This document shows, one piece after another, positions 2,921-57,504 of a DNA stretch of 64,000 nucleotides (position 1 is its first letter; the number at the start of each line of letters is the position of its first letter). Where the stretch lies: positions 267,035-331,034 of the forward strand of contig JAUYHT010000006.1 in assembly GCA_030688545.1 (NCBI GenBank), in the 5' to 3' direction. This DNA comes from Candidatus Iainarchaeum sp. GTDB taxonomy: Archaea > Iainarchaeota > Iainarchaeia > Iainarchaeales > VGJJ01. The translations under genes were made by a program, and so were the position numbers. The notes beneath the pieces were generated by a model that saw only the letters and a program-made list of their open reading frames with translations, had not been told where the DNA came from and did no database searches.

Positions 2921-3349
2921 TCATTCTCGAATGCCCATTAATCCGTTGGCGGGCATATTCGGGTCAATGGGTTGGGTGAATTCAAGGGTCAATTGGAACC
3001 CATTGTGCGCAATTCCTTTGGTCAGTGTCCCATCCCACATCTGCATCCCCAGCATGAATCCCACGTGCAAGTCCCCATAAATCCCATCCTTGAGGTTCAT
3101 GAAATGCCCTGACACCGAGACGATGCGCCCATTCCGCAGTTCCTGCGAGACGAAGCGGTTGTGATTGAAGTATTGCACCGTGGCTTCCTTCAGAAGTCCG
3201 TCGGCCGTGATCGCCGTGGTTTCTCTGATTCCGTGTTCGCGGATGGCTTGCCGCAACCCTTGGAGCACGTCATCCCCATCCTCGAACGCCAGGACGAGAT
3301 TCTTCTTCGTGCTCCTTCCGGTGTAAATAGTCGAATCGAATTGGCTCAT
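2921..3349 (-). CDS. PPC/DUF296-domain protein
   Basis: VLAFEDGDDVLQGLRQAIREHGIRETTAITADG...GHFMNL pattern resembles DUF296 (PPC) proteins. Confidence 0.45.
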   Translation of the reverse strand: MSQFDSTIYTGRSTKKNLVLAFEDGDDVLQGLRQAIREHGIRETTAITADGLLKEATVQYFNHNRFVSQELRNGRIVSVSGHFMNLKDGIYGDLHVGFMLGMQMWDGTLTKGIAHNGFQLTLEFTQPIDPNMPANGLMGIRE

Positions 3350-9769: not shown

Positions 9770-9819
9770 ATCGGCTATTTTGAAAATAGGAAGAGGGAGG
9801 GAATGCCCTCCCACTCATT

Positions 9820-10248
9820 TCAGATGCAACGTCCGGCTGAACAGGTTTTGTTCAAGTCTCCACAATCGTATTTGAAGGCATAGGCATGGTTGACCCGAGC
9901 CCCGTCATTGTTCACGTTCACATCCTTCCCACACGCATATTCGAGGAGCGTCTGGGTATTCACACATCCGTCCACGTACTGGATGGGCAATGGATGGTTT
10001 GGGAACCTAGCATTGAGGTCGCCCGACGTGGTGGGGTTAAACCCTCCGTCGGTGTCCAGGCAGGAAATGACGTCATTCGCGTCCCCGACCATGAGAGCAT
10101 TATACAGCGGCCCCCCATTAACATTCCTCACCGTCACTGGAGTAACTGGGATGCGGGTGATATGCGCCCACACCAATGGAGCGATGACCAACACCACCAA
10201 TAGGGCGATAACACCCAAGGCGATACTTCCTTTATGAAAATCCATCAT
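9820..10248 (-). CDS. secreted six-cysteine small protein, paralog 1 of tandem family
   Basis: Sec signal peptide (APLVWA/HI), 6 conserved Cys, C-terminal YAFKYDCGDLNKTCSAGRCI; GGAGG SD; first 90 nt plus upstream region identical to paralog 2. Confidence 0.6.
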   Translation of the reverse strand: MMDFHKGSIALGVIALLVVLVIAPLVWAHITRIPVTPVTVRNVNGGPLYNALMVGDANDVISCLDTDGGFNPTTSGDLNARFPNHPLPIQYVDGCVNTQTLLEYACGKDVNVNNDGARVNHAYAFKYDCGDLNKTCSAGRCI

Positions 10249-10296
10249 TCATTCCTCCTTCCCAAAAATGGGGTAGAACAATCTTCGAATCCCGAG

Positions 10297-10306
10297 TTAT
10301 ATAAAT
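10297..10306 (-). promoter_or_regulatory. TATA box (TTTATATAA on minus) ~50 bp upstream of paralog 1
   Basis: catTTATATAAct on the coding strand. Confidence 0.35.
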
Positions 10307-10364
10307 GTATGGAAGGTCGCCCATCCGCTTGGAAATAAAGCAATCACCCCAAAGAATTCCAACC

Positions 10365-10441
10365 ACCACGCACCAACCCATGAAACAGGTCTTGTTGATG
10401 TCTGCACAATTGAATTTGAAGGCATAGACATGATTGAGCAA
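10365..10441 (-). pseudogene. 3'-terminal fragment of a fourth family paralog (last ~25 codons only)
   Basis: encodes HVYAFKFNCADINKTCFMGWCV; ~90% nt identity to 10998-11075; no start, fused directly to the paralog 2 stop. Confidence 0.55.
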
Positions 10442-10444
10442 ACC

Positions 10445-10882
10445 TTAAACGCACCATGCGAGGAAGCAGAATTTGTTGAGATCCCGGCAGTTGAATTTGT
10501 AGGCGTACACCTTGTTGGGTTGGAATCCGGTTCCATTATGGTTGACATCGCTCCCGCATGCGAATTCCAGCTTGTAATCCCCGATAGGGGAACCTAAGCA
10601 ATTCTCGTAGTAAACCAATTCCGCATTCCGGTCAGCCGATCGCATGCGCAACACGCTTCGGAATTCGGGATTAAATCCACTGAAGTGTTCGGTACAGGAT
10701 ATGGCATCCGAGGCTTCTCCCATTTGTATGGCGGAATAGGCGATGGCGTGATCCGGGTTGAATATCGTGACATTCGTGGGTTGTATTCGTTCAATGTGAG
10801 CCCACACCAATGGAGCGATGACCAACACCACCAATAGGGCGATAACACCCAAGGCGATACTTCCTTTATGAAAATCCATCAT
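10445..10882 (-). CDS. secreted six-cysteine small protein, paralog 2
   Basis: same architecture; ends YAYKFNCRDLNKFCFLAWCV. Confidence 0.6.
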   Translation of the reverse strand: MMDFHKGSIALGVIALLVVLVIAPLVWAHIERIQPTNVTIFNPDHAIAYSAIQMGEASDAISCTEHFSGFNPEFRSVLRMRSADRNAELVYYENCLGSPIGDYKLEFACGSDVNHNGTGFQPNKVYAYKFNCRDLNKFCFLAWCV

Positions 10883-10930
10883 TCATTCCTCCTTCCCAGA
10901 AATGGGGCAGTACTACCATCAATTCAGGAG

Positions 10931-10940
10931 TTATAAAAAT
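10931..10940 (-). promoter_or_regulatory. TATA box (TTTTTATAA on minus) upstream of paralog 2
   Basis: positionally equivalent to 10297-10306. Confidence 0.35.
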
Positions 10941-10997
10941 GTACTGAGGACTCACTCATCCATTTGGAAAAAGAGCGACACCCTCACAGAGTCCTAA

Positions 10998-11426
10998 TCA
11001 CACGCACCAACCAATGAAACAGGTCTTGTTGATGTCCGCGCAATTAAATTTATAGGCGTAGACATAATTGGTGATGAGCCCGTTTCCATTGTGGTTTACA
11101 TCTTTCCCGCATGCGAATTCCGTTTTAGTGGTGTTGTCAAGGCACCGCTCGAAATAGACTAAATCCCCATTCCGGTCGGCGGATTGCATGTGCAGGGTGC
11201 CCATGAGGTGGGGTTTGAACCCTCCATCCGAGTCGAAGCAATACAGCGCATCATGGGTCTCTCCCACTTGTTTCGCGTGGTACGCATAGGTATCTCCCCG
11301 GTTTACTACAATCGCCCCCACGGCCTTCATCCGTTCCAAATGCGCCATCACGAGGGGCGCGATGAGCAATAGGCCCAATAGGGCCAGCCCGGCCCCCAGC
11401 ATAAATGTCCGATTACTAGTCATCAA
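10998..11426 (-). CDS. secreted six-cysteine small protein, paralog 3
   Basis: signal APLVMA/HL; shares SADRNxxLVYxExCL, FACGKDVNHNGNG, YAYKFNCADINKTCFIGWCV; AGGAGG SD. Confidence 0.6.
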   Translation of the reverse strand: MMTSNRTFMLGAGLALLGLLLIAPLVMAHLERMKAVGAIVVNRGDTYAYHAKQVGETHDALYCFDSDGGFKPHLMGTLHMQSADRNGDLVYFERCLDNTTKTEFACGKDVNHNGNGLITNYVYAYKFNCADINKTCFIGWCV

Positions 11427-11538
11427 ATTGCCTCCTTAATTGGGGTGGATGGAGTACTTGGGGTCGGCAAGGAATAAAAGGATAGGTTGTGTCACCTAGC
11501 CCAAAATAGATTAATGACGACTAAAATATTTCGTCCAC

Positions 11539-12006
11539 CTATCTATCGAGCATTACCTTCTTCATGATCACGGGTTCCAATGGCGCGTCATTCCTTCCAG
11601 TGGGGGTTTTCCCAATGGCCTGCACCACCTCCATCCCCTCGATGACCTTTCCAAAGATGGCGTGCTTTCCATCCAGCCAGGGAGTGGGAACAAGAGTCAC
11701 GAAAAACTGGCTGCCTCCTGTGTTAGGTCCCGCGTTCGCCATCGAAAGAATCCCGGGGGCGTTGTGTTTCAATCCTTCTCCAAATTCGTCCGGGATAGTA
11801 TACCCCGGGCCCCCCGTTCCATTACCAGTGGGGTCGCCTCCCTGCAGCATGAAGCCCGCAATCACCCGGTGAAAAATCAACCCGTCATAGAATCCTTTAG
11901 TGACCAGGTCGAGGAAATTTTGGCTCGTCCGGGGGGCTTTATCCTGGAATAGTTCGGCCCTAAATCGGCCAAGAGTGGTTTCAAATGAGATGATGGGATT
12001 GGGCAT
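11539..12006 (-). CDS. peptidyl-prolyl cis-trans isomerase, cyclophilin type
   Basis: [15 protein letters not shown]...GGPGY...[17 protein letters not shown]; start set at MPNPIIS after GGAGG. Confidence 0.85.
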
Positions 12007-12193
12007 GATGGGTTCCTCCGGGATCAATGCACTATCCGTGGGCGCTAATGCATAAAAATGGAGATAGATGAGAAGCCCGTTGATCCCCATTTCCGGGAGA
12101 GAAAACTCCTCCATTTTCCTGGAAAAGCATCTTTTTTAACTCCATTTCCACGGTTTCCCCATGCGCCGTCCCTTGAAATATTTTCCCTGCAAA

Positions 12194-14462: not shown

Positions 14463-14485
14463 GAAACTTTTTTCTAAAAAGTTTC
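14463..14485. repeat. AT palindrome family member (GAAACTTTTTT-ct-AAAAAGTTTC), 3' of MCO gene
   Basis: inverted repeat; family members listed in findings. Confidence 0.45.
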
Positions 14486-27301: not shown

Positions 27302-27414
27302 GATAATCCTATAAAAGTACTAAATAAAAACCAGCAGAGATAAAATTATGTAGTCATAATACTTTCTCTGCTTAAATCGTTTTTGAACAAACTATTTTAG
27401 AAAAAAAGTTTCTT

Positions 27415-30335: not shown

Positions 30336-30501
30336 CTTTTTCCTAAAAAGCGTTCGTTTTTTTGATCAAACTTCATCGTAAACACTATTTTCCGCCAACG
30401 CTTTTTCCAGCGGAAAAAGGGTTGTTACGATGCTCGCAAAACATAGTTTTGCTTGGTTTCCTAAAAAGTTTCTTTTGATGAAACTTTTTTTTAAAAAGTT
30501 C
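30336..30501. repeat. cluster of AT palindromes (CTTTTTCC-N-GGAAAAAG type) and TTTGATCAAA between convergent genes
   Basis: ctttttcctaaaaag (30336-50), tttgatcaaa (30361-70), ctttttccagcggaaaaag (30401-19), gaaactttttttttaaaaagttc (30477-501). Confidence 0.5.
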
Positions 30502-32810: not shown

Positions 32811-32917
32811 CTTTTTTCTAAAAGGAGGGTTTTTGATCAAACTTTTTCCCAAAAAGTTTGATGAGGAAGCTTTTTTCTGAGTCGATTTTTTGATAAAACT
32901 TTTTCCTAAAAAGTTTT
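32811..32917. repeat. AT palindrome cluster (TCAAACTTTTT-ccc-AAAAAGTTTGA and relatives) between convergent genes
   Basis: perfect 11-bp arms at 32837-32861; second copy 32895-32917. Confidence 0.5.
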
Positions 32918-55281: not shown

Positions 55282-57504
55282 TTACTTCTTCCGCGGCGCC
55301 ACCCATACTTCATCGGGCCATTCCTCTTCGGTGACGCGGGGGGCCCAGGCTTGTGCGGGAAAAAACCGGGAGCGGATCCAGAACCAGGCTCCCGCAAGGA
55401 TGAGGAGCACTAATATTCCCAACCAAAAACCCCTGGCGCCGCTCACGAATGCAGTGGCTTGCGCCACGGAGTTGGTGCTGGGCTTCAGGATGAGGGTGTG
55501 CGGCGCGGATTGGGTGGCGAATCCCACGAATTGGATAGGGATATTCCGCGGTTGCATCAACCAGGCGTCGGGCGAAATGGTATAGGTCACCCGTTTGGTT
55601 TCCATGGGAGCCAATGCAATGGGGGTTTCCCCTTCTATTTTCCAACCAGTGGGAACCGTGATCAGGATATTCCCTTCATGAGACTGATTGGTCGTATTTT
55701 GGATGAGCACATCCACCGTGTACGCGTTGCGCGTCACGGGTTCCTCCACCACTTCCGGGGTGATGCGCACCTTTTCCTCGAATACGATGTTATACATGTG
55801 CGTCACGATGTACCCCTCGCTCGCCACCTGCAGAATGAGTTGGCTCCCATTCTGCAAAAGGGACACCGGAAGAAGGATAATAGGTTCATCAAATCCCCCC
55901 ACGCGAACGATTTTTTCGAATGTCTGGCCGGTAGGTTTCACGGTTAGTGTGAGAGTGGCATCGTGGGAATAGAAGCTCGTGTTCATCAGAGGAATGGCGA
56001 ATGTGGATGCGTTTCCGATGACAATTTCGGATGGGGGGTTATTCAATTGGATGGGAGCTTGCGTGACGCTCGAGAAGAACAATGGGCGATCTTCCCCCTC
56101 CAAAGCGCATCCTTCGATGAGGGGTTGAAGATGAAGAGTATTCACTTGGGAATTGGTCTCGACGCGTACCGCGTGAATGACGTGGGAAAGGGGGGGTACA
56201 GCGATGACAGATGGGATGATGATTCCGTCTTCCAGGGTTAGCGCGACGCGAGCCGTTTGAGTGAGAGGGTTTATCAGTTCGATGGGGATGGTTTGCCCTT
56301 CCTTCACTAATCCCCCATCGAGAATGATCTTGAAGTCGGCGCATTGTTCCCCTTGTGTCCCATGGAAAGTGAATGGGATGCGCATGTTGGGAATGGCGCA
56401 CGCCGTGGTATCGGTGAAATGTCCTTGGATGGTGATGAACGCACTCCCGTCGAATGACACATCATTCCTGAATCCGGTGGATTGCAGGGAGAATTCCCCA
56501 GTCTTAGTTGAGCGAATGGTTTGGGGAGTGGCCAACAGGGAATAGTCAAGTTGGTAATTGACATCCTGTATCTGGAAGTGGTCCACATGGAAGGTTTGAT
56601 CGGAGTTGTTCTGCAAGAATAGGGAATGGGTATTGTTTTCTCCTGCGCGCACGTCGAAATGGGCGGGTAGCACACGCAGTTCGGTGCAGGCGAAGACATT
56701 GGTGAATGTGTTTTCCACTGTCACCTCGAATGCCCCGTCGATGTCCCCGAATGAACAGTCCTGGCCATTTGAAAAAGCCCCTCGGGTTTCCAGGAATACA
56801 TGATCCACGACATCCTCGCTTACCCGTTGCGTGCGGATTTCAATGCGCACGGGTTGGCGAGTATGCCGCGGGATGCTTTTTATAAAATCCGCATCATTGA
56901 ATCCGGGGTTCAATCGCGTGCTGAACTCGGGAGAATCATCAAAGACATTGAATCCTTGCAGGGTGAAATCCTCAGAGGAATCGTTGCGCAGGAAAACCGT
57001 GTGGATGATTGTGACATCCTCGGCCACCGAAACATCCGTGGTCTCGAATGAAATGGCTTTGCATACGTCCGCCGAATCCTGGATAGTGACATCGATGGTG
57101 AAAGTGAGGTCAGCCAATGAACAAGAAGGGGTATTGTCGAATGCCCCCCGCAGGGAAACGTTGAATGAGGTGGTTTGGTCTCCATTCACATCTTGAGTAG
57201 TGTATCGTAGGACCAGGTTCCCACTCCCATTTTCCTGGATCTCGTCGGGAAACGAATCTACCGTGATATCAATTCGCGAATCATCCTCTTCCACCCGGAC
57301 ATCATCCAAATCAAAGGAATCATTCCCCTCATTCTCAATCCGAAGGGTCAGCACACGATTAATCCTGCTTTCGGATAAAACAACCGAATCAGGAGTGACG
57401 GTGATGTCATTGCAGGTGGCGGCAAAGGCCGGGGTGGCCAGCAAGAACAAACAAACTCCCAATATGCCTAGGAAACGGCGCATATACCCAATGAGAAGCC
57501 CCAC
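55282..57504 (-). CDS. cell-surface (S-layer-like) glycoprotein candidate with three internal RGAF/Cys repeats and C-terminal TM anchor
   Basis: signal peptide, >15 N-x-S/T sequons, repeats LRGAFDNTPSC.., TRGAFSNGQDC.., IQGHFTDTTAC.., C-terminal TM + WFWIRSRFF. Confidence 0.45.
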   Translation of the reverse strand: MGLLIGYMRRFLGILGVCLFLLATPAFAATCNDITVTPDSVVLSESRINRVLTLRIENEGNDSFDLDDVRVEEDDSRIDITVDSFPDEIQENGSGNLVLRYTTQDVNGDQTTSFNVSLRGAFDNTPSCSLADLTFTIDVTIQDSADVCKAISFETTDVSVAEDVTIIHTVFLRNDSSEDFTLQGFNVFDDSPEFSTRLNPGFNDADFIKSIPRHTRQPVRIEIRTQRVSEDVVDHVFLETRGAFSNGQDCSFGDIDGAFEVTVENTFTNVFACTELRVLPAHFDVRAGENNTHSLFLQNNSDQTFHVDHFQIQDVNYQLDYSLLATPQTIRSTKTGEFSLQSTGFRNDVSFDGSAFITIQGHFTDTTACAIPNMRIPFTFHGTQGEQCADFKIILDGGLVKEGQTIPIELINPLTQTARVALTLEDGIIIPSVIAVPPLSHVIHAVRVETNSQVNTLHLQPLIEGCALEGEDRPLFFSSVTQAPIQLNNPPSEIVIGNASTFAIPLMNTSFYSHDATLTLTVKPTGQTFEKIVRVGGFDEPIILLPVSLLQNGSQLILQVASEGYIVTHMYNIVFEEKVRITPEVVEEPVTRNAYTVDVLIQNTTNQSHEGNILITVPTGWKIEGETPIALAPMETKRVTYTISPDAWLMQPRNIPIQFVGFATQSAPHTLILKPSTNSVAQATAFVSGARGFWLGILVLLILAGAWFWIRSRFFPAQAWAPRVTEEEWPDEVWVAPRKK

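What the first reader, a model, noticed from the sequence alone, without database searches (positions are those of the whole stretch)
9820..11426. Tandem array of paralogous secreted six-cysteine small proteins with a truncated fourth copy and signs of gene conversion
Three ~142-aa genes on the minus strand (9820-10248, 10445-10882, 10998-11426) encode Sec-signal proteins with conserved cores. Shared elements are D(A/V)xSC..GGF(N/K)P, SADRNxxLVY(Y/F)ExCL, (Y/F)ACG(K/S)DVNHNG and a terminal YAYKFNCxDxNKxCFxxWCV, six cysteines in all. The first ~90 nt of paralogs 1 and 2 plus their SD and upstream region (10167-10264 vs 10801-10898) are nucleotide-identical. The rest of these two genes has diverged. 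Each copy has its own TATA box and GGAGG SD. Between paralogs 2 and 1 sits a 77-nt remnant (10365-10441). It encodes only the last ~25 codons of a P3-like copy and is fused straight onto the paralog 2 stop codon. This looks like unequal crossing-over or a deletion. Birth-and-death plus conversion in a secreted disulfide-rich family is typical of toxin, bacteriocin or surface-recognition proteins. I do not recognise the fold.
Basis: seen in the sequence. Interest (0 to 1): 0.75.

Follow-up and report, generated by a model that had tools for sequence, protein, structure and literature searches.

The report
Tandem secreted six-cysteine proteins, DPANN archaeon
Three neighbouring genes in an uncultured DPANN archaeon encode small secreted proteins built on an uncatalogued six-cysteine beta domain with no structural match in the libraries searched; one gene recently took over its neighbour's promoter and signal peptide, and what the proteins do is unknown, most likely extracellular binding.

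Summary
Three minus-strand genes (P1 9820-10248, P2 10445-10882, P3 10998-11426) are paralogues. Each has a Sec-type signal and six conserved cysteines. A 70-75 nt P3-like tail fragment sits just after the P2 stop, and P1 and P2 share a 99-nt exact repeat covering the SD and signal peptide.

New here: the fragment, the spacer and the identical 5' end form one collinear ~277-nt block at a constant 634-nt offset, so they are not separate events. P1 is a chimera. Its mature part groups with single-copy orthologues in other genomes, and its promoter, SD and signal are P2's.

The same six-Cys module recurs in tandem in large proteins, one with SLH cell-wall-anchor domains (a CPR bacterium) and one with Ig-like domains. 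The best reading is a fast-evolving extracellular disulfide-bonded binding module. Nothing supports a toxin or bacteriocin role. Moderately interesting.

The parts
10998..11426 (-). P3: 142-aa paralogue. It has a signal peptide, a two-strand N-terminal extension and the six-Cys module. Start is TTG 11426 or in-frame ATG 11423. It lies directly downstream of the cyclophilin gene.
   Evidence: ORF. AF2 pLDDT 92.9, all-beta after the signal helix. Family alignment.
10445..10882 (-). P2: 145-aa paralogue and sister of P3. The otherwise near-invariant D-x-D-G-G loop is degenerate (CTEHFSGF).
   Evidence: AF2 pLDDT 91.4 with the same strand order. NJ tree.
9820..10248 (-). P1: 142-aa paralogue. Its mature part groups with the single-copy orthologues of other genomes. 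Its first 28 codons are P2's.
10367..10441 (-). Remnant: the last ~23-25 codons of a P3-like gene. It begins 3-8 nt after the P2 stop and has lost its stop codon. It has no start, SD or signal of its own and is probably a pseudogene fragment.
   Evidence: 62/70 nt to the P3 tail. 63/75 to P3 against 54/75 (P1) and 49/75 (P2).
10794..11070 (-). Duplicated block, copy A: P3 tail, P3-P2 spacer (T-run, TATA-like box, SD) and P2 signal peptide.
   Evidence: blastn 85.3% over 279 columns against copy B, E 3e-84. Constant 634-nt offset.
10160..10436 (-). Duplicated block, copy B: remnant, spacer and P1 signal peptide. Identity to copy A by segment: 89% (remnant), 68% and 73% (spacer), 100% (99-nt core). 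It falls to 52% in the mature region.
10166..10264 (-). 99-nt exact repeat, copy at P1. It covers 16 nt upstream including GGAGG (10254-10258) plus codons 1-27 and two bases of codon 28.
   Evidence: 99/99 identical to 10800-10898.
10800..10898 (-). 99-nt exact repeat, copy at P2. GGAGG lies at 10888-10892.
   Evidence: Logan contig L001 ends 30 nt into it.
10297..10305 (-). TATA-like box TTTATATAA, 57 nt upstream of the P1 start.
   Evidence: Read from the sequence. Function not tested.
10931..10939 (-). TATA-like box TTTTTATAA, 57 nt upstream of the P2 start.
   Evidence: Read from the sequence. Function not tested.
11473..11479 (-). Weaker TATA-like box TTTTATT upstream of P3. SD GGAGG lies at 11431-11435.
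   Evidence: Read from the sequence. Function not tested.
9795..9812 (-). G+C-rich hairpin followed by a T-rich tract, just after the P1 stop. It is terminator-like and marks the end of the array.
11539..12006 (-). Cyclophilin-type PPIase, 155 aa from the internal ATG. It is the synteny anchor found just upstream of, or near, the family gene in related genomes.
   Evidence: Pfam PF00160, E 5.5e-54. Same neighbour in L014, L010 and L002. 74-77% identical across those genomes.

Best explanation
**What it is.** This is a real, lineage-specific three-gene expansion, plus one gene fragment, of a rare archaeal family of small exported proteins. The host is an uncultured archaeon that NCBI names a Candidatus Diapherotrites (DPANN) MAG.

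**The protein.** Each protein has three parts:
- a Sec-type cleavable signal peptide (h-region, then A-P-x-[VA]-x-A, then the cut);
- about 30 residues forming two long beta strands;
- one ~80-residue module with six cysteines: C1-x-D-[ST]-D-G-G ... D-x-C2 ... L-x-E-[FY]-x-C3 ... C4 ... C5-x2-G-x-C6.

I infer that the cysteines form three disulfides, with C1 paired to C3, and that these lock a compact all-beta domain outside the cell.

**Likely role.** Shorter versions of the module (~65-74 aa) are strung in tandem in large proteins, one with SLH cell-wall-anchor domains (a CPR bacterium) and one with Ig-like domains. The most likely role is therefore a stable extracellular binding or adhesion unit, free or loosely attached to the surface. 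It might bind a glycan, an envelope component or a partner-cell ligand, possibly helped by the acidic DxDGG loop. It is probably not an enzyme or a toxin.

**How the array arose (inferred).**
- P1 is the conservative descendant of the single-copy gene that sits near cyclophilin in relatives.
- P2 and P3 are fast-diverging duplicates.
- Later, one ~277-nt segment (P3 tail, spacer with TATA box and SD, P2 signal peptide) was copied in front of the P1 body. One end joined by homology at the signal/mature boundary. The other end joined illegitimately a few bases after the P2 stop.
- This replaced P1's own promoter and signal and left the P3-tail fragment.
- The 99-nt core was then homogenised again, or has been kept identical. 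P1 and P2 therefore probably share the same transcription, translation and export signals but carry mature domains only 39% identical.

**Shown and inferred.** Shown: gene structure, paralogy, the mosaic block, rarity, single copy elsewhere, absence of catalogued relatives, and confident models. Inferred: signal cleavage, disulfides, binding function, and the order of events.

**Confidence.** The single figure of 0.55 blends about 0.85 for the descriptive part with about 0.4 for the binding function.
For: **Genes and paralogy.**

**Host.** NCBI names the source a Candidatus Diapherotrites MAG with a 445,965-bp contig. The window also holds an archaeal ribosomal-protein operon.

**Family size and cysteines.**
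- Only 34 cluster representatives reach E<=1e-3 among 1.84 billion, almost all 103-166 aa.
- The six Cys are invariant in full-length members.
- Cysteine counts are always even, 6 or 2.
- All four 2-Cys variants keep exactly C1 and C3. This argues for paired use, meaning disulfides.

**Signal peptide.** The wider family has classic n-h-c signals ending in small residues at -3/-1, and no conserved pilin-type KG motif. Mature regions carry N-x-S/T sequons: 1-2 here, median 3 in homologues.

**Module reuse.** Thirteen module copies occur in five multi-domain proteins, and all six Cys plus D5, E41 and G77 align (G7 in all but one copy). One of these proteins is an SLH-domain protein of a Candidatus Peribacteraceae bacterium. 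Another carries Big domains and acidic disulfide repeats.

**Structure.** AF2 gives pLDDT 92.9 and pTM 0.79 for P3, and 91.4 and 0.78 for P2, with the same strand order.

**Fast evolution.** The family's mature part is 31-42% identical between genomes whose adjacent cyclophilins are 74-77% identical.

**Mosaic and duplication.**. The NJ tree places P1 with P0004-P0007 and makes P2 and P3 sisters.

**Copy number.** The gene is single-copy in all other loci.

**Independent assemblies.**

**Extracytoplasmic thiol-redox genes.** DsbD_TM plus thioredoxin lie within 1-6 kb of the family gene in three related contexts.
Against: - No experiment or homology ties the module to binding. The argument rests on domain association.
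- P2 has lost the conserved DxDGG loop, so if that loop is the functional site, P2 works differently or not at all.
- The neighbours are housekeeping genes and tell nothing about function.
- The DsbD_TM/thioredoxin pair is absent from this 64-kb window. Its proximity elsewhere may be plain synteny among relatives.
- Signal cleavage was not predicted with a dedicated tool. An uncleaved signal-anchor is possible.
- Extracellular disulfides in a probably anaerobic groundwater archaeon are assumed, not shown.
- The AlphaFold database library was unavailable, so 'no structural relative' covers only the PDB and viral models.
- The order of duplication, recombination and homogenisation cannot be fixed from one genome.
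- The NJ tree has no support values.
Confidence: 0.55

Rival explanations
1. The proteins are secreted antimicrobial proteins or toxins (archaeocin-like). The array reflects an arms race with competitors or hosts.
For: The proteins are small, secreted and disulfide-rich. They evolve fast relative to neighbours and are expanded in one lineage. In one related locus (L013) an ABC-2 transporter pair lies directly downstream.
Against: - No immunity, maturation or dedicated export genes are conserved next to the family.
- No match to any toxin, phage or defence profile and none in plasmids or viral contigs.
- The same module is used as a repeated building block of large multi-domain proteins, one SLH-anchored. 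That is unusual for a toxin warhead.
- The mature proteins are mildly acidic (pI 5.4-6.3), unlike most membrane-active peptides.
Confidence: 0.1
2. The proteins are structural envelope components. They could be small subunits that decorate or polymerise on the S-layer or cell surface, or that stay anchored by an uncleaved N-terminal helix. In this reading they are not ligand-binding proteins.
For: - The N-terminal hydrophobic helix is long, about 22 residues.
- The closest subfamily has a K-G just before the helix, loosely like a class III (pilin-type) signal.
- The module occurs in an SLH-bearing (cell-wall-anchor) protein of a CPR bacterium.
- A ~1000-aa FG-GAP/Big_7 surface protein lies next to the gene in L004 and close by in L013.
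Against: - The K-G is not conserved in the wider family, which instead shows ordinary Sec signals with A-x-A-like cleavage sites.
- There is no C-terminal sorting signal, lipobox or pilin-like conserved N-terminal motif.
- No pilus or archaellum assembly genes lie nearby in the window.
Confidence: 0.2
3. The array, or part of it, is an assembly artefact. It could be a chimera of strain variants joined through the 99-nt repeat, or a collapsed or expanded repeat. In that case the 'gene conversion' is not biological.
For: The source is a short-read MAG. A 99-nt exact repeat is shorter than the reads and comparable to common k-mer sizes. The Logan assembly breaks at the repeat. Read depth could not be checked.
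Against: - The junction from the P2 stop to the remnant has no long k-mer shared with any other place. It must therefore exist in reads (inference from how de Bruijn assemblers work).
- A second deposited assembly carries P2 tail, remnant, P1 and the downstream gene at 100% identity.
- The Logan break lies exactly k-1 (assuming k=31) into the repeat. This means both upstream contexts are in the reads.
- The only linear path through such a graph that uses every segment is the one reported. What stays uncertain is how many times the P2 loop is traversed, and whether a P2-less strain coexists.
Confidence: 0.08
4. The six cysteines bind metal (a Zn or Fe-S type site) and do not form disulfides. 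The protein would then be an extracellular metal-binding or redox protein.
For: There are six invariant cysteines. A multicopper oxidase and redox genes lie in the wider neighbourhood. The habitat is probably low in oxygen.
Against: - The spacing is spread over 80 residues with no CxxC-type knuckles.
- A subfamily keeps only C1 and C3 and drops the other four together. That fits pairs, not a cluster.
- There are no conserved His partners.
- AF2 folds the domain as a compact beta structure with very high confidence without any ligand.
Confidence: 0.07

Closest known systems
Six-Cys 'CxD[ST]DGG' extracellular module, repeated in large proteins of CPR bacteria and uncultured organisms (for example MDD5074736.1, an S-layer-homology-domain protein of a Candidatus Peribacteraceae bacterium). 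No Pfam or NCBIfam model matched it.
   Same: All six cysteines align, as do the D-x-D-G-G loop, the L-x-E-[FY]-x-C motif and the terminal C-x2-G-x-C. The profile built from the window proteins hits these modules at E 4e-8 to 8e-4.
   Different: The window proteins are single-module and free-standing. They have their own signal peptide and an extra two-strand N-terminal extension. The C3-C4 loop is longer and the C4-C5 spacing is 6 residues instead of 3. P2 lacks the DxDGG loop.
Small secreted cysteine-rich protein families in tandem paralogue arrays, as in eukaryotic effector and defensin-like families. This is a general pattern recalled from knowledge of those fields.
   Same: Signal peptide, small size, an invariant cysteine scaffold with a fast-changing surface, local tandem duplication, and a conserved head on diverged mature regions.
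   Different: There is no sequence or fold relationship. Here the host is a DPANN archaeon, and the module is also a building block of large multi-domain proteins. No evidence of positive selection could be obtained because synonymous sites are saturated.
DxDxDG-type calcium-binding loops. This is a structural motif recalled from the literature and was not tested.
   Same: An acidic D-x-D-G-G turn is nearly invariant at the start of the module.
   Different: The motif here is x-x-D-x-D-G-G and lacks the first Asp. No calcium site can be assessed with these tools. P2 has lost it.
[not shown]
   Same: All-beta architecture, with 80 residues superposed.

Membership tests
Any curated protein family (Pfam-A, NCBIfam, PHROGs, PADLOC) | Score above the family's curated cut-off or a significant E-value | tested here: not met
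   No family at E<=0.01 for P1-P3. The best hits were chance-level: Col_cuticle_N at E 0.1 on the signal peptide and PDC-M20A at E 0.012. The multi-module relatives also give no hit over the module.
[not shown]
   [not shown]
Uncatalogued six-Cys CxD[ST]DGG extracellular module | Six cysteines in conserved order and register | tested here: met
   All six align in P1, P2, P3, in all 24 full-length small homologues in the alignment (the three fragments lack only missing parts), and in 13 module copies of 5 large proteins.
Uncatalogued six-Cys CxD[ST]DGG extracellular module | Acidic D-x-D-G-G loop right after C1 | tested here: met
   P1 has CLDTDGG and P3 has CFDSDGG. P2 is the exception with CTEHFSG.
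Uncatalogued six-Cys CxD[ST]DGG extracellular module | L-x-E-[FY]-x-C3 strand with an invariant Glu, and a terminal C5-x2-G-x-C6 | tested here: met
   E103/E106 and the Gly before C6 are invariant or nearly so. P2 has A-W in place of G-x before C6.
Sec/SPase I secreted proteins | n-region with a positive charge, a hydrophobic h-region, small residues at -3/-1, and no lipobox | tested here: inconclusive
   The pattern is visible in all members (for example APLVWA|H, APIVMA|N, PLASS|A). AF2 puts residues 5-27 in a separate helix. No dedicated predictor was available and cleavage is not shown.
Archaeal class III signal / type IV pilin-like proteins | [KR]-[GA] cleavage motif directly before the hydrophobic helix, conserved across the family, usually with pilus assembly genes nearby | tested here: not met
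   K-G occurs only in the closest subfamily and is absent from the wider family. No pilus or archaellum genes lie in the neighbourhood.
Bacteriocin/archaeocin loci | Linked immunity, processing or dedicated export genes, or similarity to a known toxin family | tested here: not met
   The neighbours are cyclophilin, a Yip1-like membrane protein, tRNA-Glu, an amidohydrolase, FMN reductase and glyoxalase. No partner is conserved across related loci except housekeeping synteny.
Non-allelic gene conversion or segmental recombination between tandem paralogues | A tract of (near-)identity with sharp borders inside otherwise saturated paralogues, including silent sites and non-coding flank | tested here: met
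   99/99 nt are identical, including 16 nt upstream. pS is 0.05 in codons 1-28 against 0.81 afterwards. Identity drops to 52% in the next 99 nt.
Three intramolecular disulfides | Cysteines oxidised in pairs in the mature protein | not testable with these tools
   Indirect evidence only: Cys counts are even throughout, the 2-Cys variants keep C1 and C3, and the protein is exported.

The most novel reading that the evidence does not exclude
The six-Cys module is a previously undescribed extracellular fold shared by DPANN archaea and CPR bacteria, the two radiations of ultra-small episymbionts. The free-standing small proteins would be soluble or surface-displayed recognition factors for partner cells or their glycans. 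In this genome the array would then be a diversification of that specificity: one shared promoter/signal cassette driving mature domains only 39% identical.
Probability: 0.2. Interest if true: 0.6.

Novelty: new variant of a known kind. Interest (0 to 1): 0.4.

Why it matters
DPANN archaea and CPR bacteria are thought to live attached to other cells, yet very few of their surface or secreted proteins have an assigned role or structure. This locus gives a compact, confidently modelled, disulfide-scaffolded module that matches no curated family or solved or viral-model structure searched here. The module occurs as a free small protein in DPANN archaea and as tandem repeats in a CPR protein with cell-wall-anchor domains. 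At about 115 residues it is a tractable target for expression, structure determination and ligand screening. The array itself is a clean small example of promoter and signal-peptide swapping between archaeal paralogues. If the module proves to be an ordinary adhesin-like domain, the finding is a routine lineage-specific expansion of a hypothetical protein family.

Tried and rejected
- **Curated libraries.** Pfam, NCBIfam, PHROGs and PADLOC scans of P1-P3 and of the multi-module relatives found nothing over the module.
- **PDB sequence search.** The profile against PDB sequences gave 0 hits.
- **Wider protein searches.** A second and third search with broader alignments (A3, A5) returned almost nothing, 4 proteins and 1 protein, and added no names.
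- **Collection scans.** Genome, metagenome and viral scans and a plasmid tblastn found 4 genome loci and 1 metagenome locus. Two of these duplicate loci already fetched. All are single-copy. There were no viral or plasmid relatives.
- **Literature.** Searches for DPANN or Diapherotrites cysteine-rich secreted proteins found nothing on this module.
- **Pilin-type signal.** Considered because of the K-G in close homologues. Rejected because the wider family lacks it.
- **Other copies in the window.** I looked for more copies, including the 142-aa ORF at 2921-3349. That ORF is a PCC-domain protein and there are no further copies.
- **Thiol-redox and synteny genes.** DsbD_TM/thioredoxin, deoxyhypusine synthase and the FG-GAP surface protein are seen near homologues. 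None is in the window.
- **dN/dS.** Not informative. Synonymous sites are saturated outside the converted tract.
- **Simple duplication models.** A simple 634-nt tandem duplication, or one unequal crossover, was rejected as the whole explanation. The mature bodies of P1 and P2 are far older than the block, and P2 keeps its own intact tail.
Full report

Yes. The ORF listing gives three minus-strand ORFs at 9820-10248 (P1, 142 aa), 10445-10882 (P2, 145 aa) and 10998-11426 (P3, 142 aa). P3 starts at a TTG with an in-frame ATG 3 nt later.

The proteins align end to end. Identity is 51% for P1-P2, 39% for P1-P3 and about 50-52% for P2-P3, with 45 invariant columns that include six cysteines. tblastn and an HMM search of all six frames find no further copy in the 64-kb window, apart from a short fragment.

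That fragment (10367-10436/10441) matches the last 23-25 codons of P3 at 62/70 nt (89%). It is closer to P3 (63/75) than to P1 (54/75) or P2 (49/75). It starts 3-8 nt after the P2 stop and has lost its own stop.

The 5' ends of P1 and P2 share 99 identical bases, 10166-10264 and 10800-10898. These comprise 16 nt upstream with the GGAGG plus 27 and two-thirds codons. Each gene has a GGAGG 4-7 nt before its start and a TATA-like box about 53-57 nt upstream. A hairpin with a T-rich tail follows P1. These signals are read from the sequence and are not shown to work.

**2.

At a constant offset of 634 nt, window 11070-10794 is collinear with 10436-10160. The first stretch holds the P3 tail, the spacer and the P2 head. 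The second holds the remnant, the spacer and the P1 head. blastn gives 85.3% identity over 279 columns, E 3e-84.

Identity is uneven along the block:

| Segment | Identity |
|---|---|
| Remnant | 89% |
| Spacer, distal half | 68% |
| Spacer, proximal half | 73% |
| 99-nt core | 100% |
| Next 99 nt (mature region) | 52% |

By Nei-Gojobori counting, P1 and P2 differ at one synonymous site in codons 1-28 (pS 0.05). In the mature part pS is 0.81 and amino-acid identity is 39%.

An NJ tree of mature regions puts P1 with the single-copy proteins of other genomes (P0004-P0007, 50-56% identical). It makes P2 and P3 long-branched sisters. The tree has no support values.

So P1 is a chimera: an old, orthologue-like body behind a head that is P2's. 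The most economical history, which is inference, runs as follows:
- An ancestral single gene sat next to cyclophilin.
- Duplications gave P3 and P2, which diverged.
- A later copy of a ~277-nt segment was placed in front of the P1 body. It joined by homology at the signal/mature border and illegitimately just after the P2 stop, where only the microhomology GCTCA is visible.
- The 99-nt core was then homogenised further.

A plain 634-nt tandem duplication, or a single unequal crossover, cannot explain two facts. The bodies are far older than the block, and P2 keeps its own tail.

**3. Could it be an assembly artefact?**

Reads cannot be mapped here, but two other assemblies help.

Logan contig L001 (SRR13727534, 3,616 bp) equals window 14484-10869. 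It ends exactly 30 nt into the 99-nt repeat. That is k-1 if the Logan graph used k=31, which is my recollection of that project and not a tool result. A break there is what happens when a repeat is entered from two different upstream contexts, so both contexts are in that read set.

GenBank contig JAXMKB010000251.1 (L005, 2,109 bp, another assembly accession) equals window 10507-8399. It carries P2 tail, remnant, spacer, P1 and the downstream gene.

The P2-stop/remnant junction shares no long word with any other place. A de Bruijn assembler therefore cannot have invented it (inference).

What remains open is how many times the P2 loop occurs, and whether a P2-less strain coexists.

**4. Organism and neighbourhood**

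NCBI names the source a Candidatus Diapherotrites archaeon MAG, with a contig of 445,965 bp. The window has seven tRNAs. It also has an archaeal ribosomal-protein/SecY operon at 34-54 kb, which explains the strong AT skew there.

The array lies between a cyclophilin PPIase (upstream, same strand) and a convergent Yip1-like membrane protein, followed by tRNA-Glu and an amidohydrolase. Further out are FMN reductase, glyoxalase, a multicopper oxidase, UDG and other housekeeping genes. There are no mobile-element, toxin-immunity, transporter or pilus genes.

**5. The family**

A profile of the three proteins finds 9 proteins among 5.8 billion cluster representatives, three of them the window's own. 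It finds 34 proteins at E<=1e-3 among 1.84 billion 50%-identity representatives.

Nearly all are 103-166 aa with the same layout:
- a signal peptide;
- about 30 residues;
- the pattern C1-x-D-[ST]-D-G-G ... D-x-C2 ... L-x-E-[FY]-x-C3 ... C4 ... C5-x2-G-x-C6.

The six Cys are invariant in full-length members. Cysteine counts are always even. The four variants with two Cys keep exactly C1 and C3. This points to a C1-C3 disulfide and to disulfides in general, not a metal site.

The wider family has ordinary Sec-type signals. The K-G seen in the closest homologues is not conserved, which argues against a pilin-type class III signal. Mature parts are mildly acidic and carry N-glycosylation sequons.

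In the loci fetched for homologues (eight distinct places in related genomes), the gene is single-copy. Its recurring neighbours are:
- cyclophilin, immediately upstream in L014 and within about 1.3-3 kb in L010 and L002, as in the window;
- deoxyhypusine synthase downstream, within 50 bp to about 5.5 kb, in L002, L003, L004 and L013;
- DsbD_TM, thioredoxin and DUF8036 within 1-6 kb in L004, L010 and L016-18.

None of deoxyhypusine synthase, DsbD_TM or thioredoxin is in this window. These links may be plain synteny among relatives.

The family evolves much faster than its neighbour. Mature regions are 31-42% identical where the adjacent cyclophilins are 74-77% identical.

**6. The module elsewhere**

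Five longer hits contain 2-4 tandem copies of a 64-74-aa version of the same module, 13 copies in all. All six Cys plus D5, E41 and G77 align, and G7 aligns in all but one copy.

One of these is an S-layer-homology-domain protein of a Candidatus Peribacteraceae (CPR) bacterium. Another has Ig-like domains and acidic double-disulfide repeats.

The module is thus an extracellular building block. No Pfam or NCBIfam model covers it. The literature searches found no description.

**7. Structure**

With the 30-sequence alignment, AlphaFold2 gives P3 a pLDDT of 92.9 and pTM of 0.79. P2 gets 91.4 and 0.78. Both have an N-terminal helix (the signal) followed by eight to nine strands in the same order and one short helix.

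P2 folds confidently even though it has lost the DxDGG loop.

**8. Function**

Nothing here assigns a biochemical activity. I commit to the reading that fits most facts: an exported, disulfide-locked, probably glycosylated binding or adhesion module, free or loosely held at the cell surface.

The facts behind this are:
- reuse of the module as tandem units in large proteins, one carrying cell-wall-anchor (SLH) domains;
- a rigid conserved scaffold with fast-changing surface;
- the lack of any catalytic motif.

My confidence in this function is about 0.4. My confidence in the descriptive part is about 0.85.

The rivals are listed with their tests: a toxin or archaeocin, an envelope structural subunit or signal-anchored protein, an assembly artefact, and a metal-binding protein.

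**9. Novelty and score**

Tandem duplication with conversion of a secreted Cys-rich family is a familiar pattern. The particular family and module match none of the libraries searched here, are very rare, and have no structural match in the libraries I could search. They belong to organisms whose surface biology is poorly known.

I rate it a new variant of a known kind, with interest 0.4.

Noticed in passing
window 14463-14485, 27389-27411, 30473-30500, 32895-32917: A short palindromic intergenic motif (GAAACTTTTTAGAAAAAAGTTTC and variants) recurs at four intergenic sites. A 3-mismatch search recovers three of them, against 0 expected in shuffles. The fourth (30473-30500) comes from a blastn match. 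The Logan contig L001 also ends on one copy. It looks like a shared terminator or regulatory palindrome.
   Followed up: partly
window ~34000-54600, minus strand: An archaeal ribosomal-protein/SecY gene cluster lies here. I recognised it from the translations (SecY, L2, L3, L4, S3, S4e, L19e, L32e and others). It accounts for the strongly negative AT skew of this stretch. It is ordinary, but it confirms an archaeal chromosome.
   Followed up: partly
window 55282-57504, minus strand: A 740-aa ORF has an N-terminal signal-like helix, a C-terminal transmembrane helix and repeated Cys-containing segments. It is a probable large surface protein, unrelated in sequence to the six-Cys module.
   Followed up: no
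window 11539-12114, minus strand: The longest cyclophilin ORF (191 aa) carries a 36-residue N-terminal extension absent from the 155-aa orthologues in L002, L010 and L014. The true start is probably the ATG at 12006.
   Followed up: partly
L004 6902-8602; L010 809-2570; L016 891-2815: A DUF8036 / thioredoxin-like / DsbD_TM (CcdA-like) gene trio lies 1-6 kb from the family gene in three related genomes. It hints at extracytoplasmic thiol-redox machinery in these DPANN archaea. None of the three is in this window.
   Followed up: partly
window 10232-10441 and 10297-10548, minus strand: Two spurious-looking ORFs (69 and 83 aa) run through the remnant and spacer. A gene caller annotated part of the 83-aa ORF in contig L005. 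There is no evidence either is real.
   Followed up: partly
L007 (JAGVNS010000043.1): One family member sits on a contig labelled 'Thaumarchaeota archaeon' (DeMMO3_24). All other named relatives are DPANN or unclassified archaea. This could be a binning or labelling error, or a wider host range.
   Followed up: no
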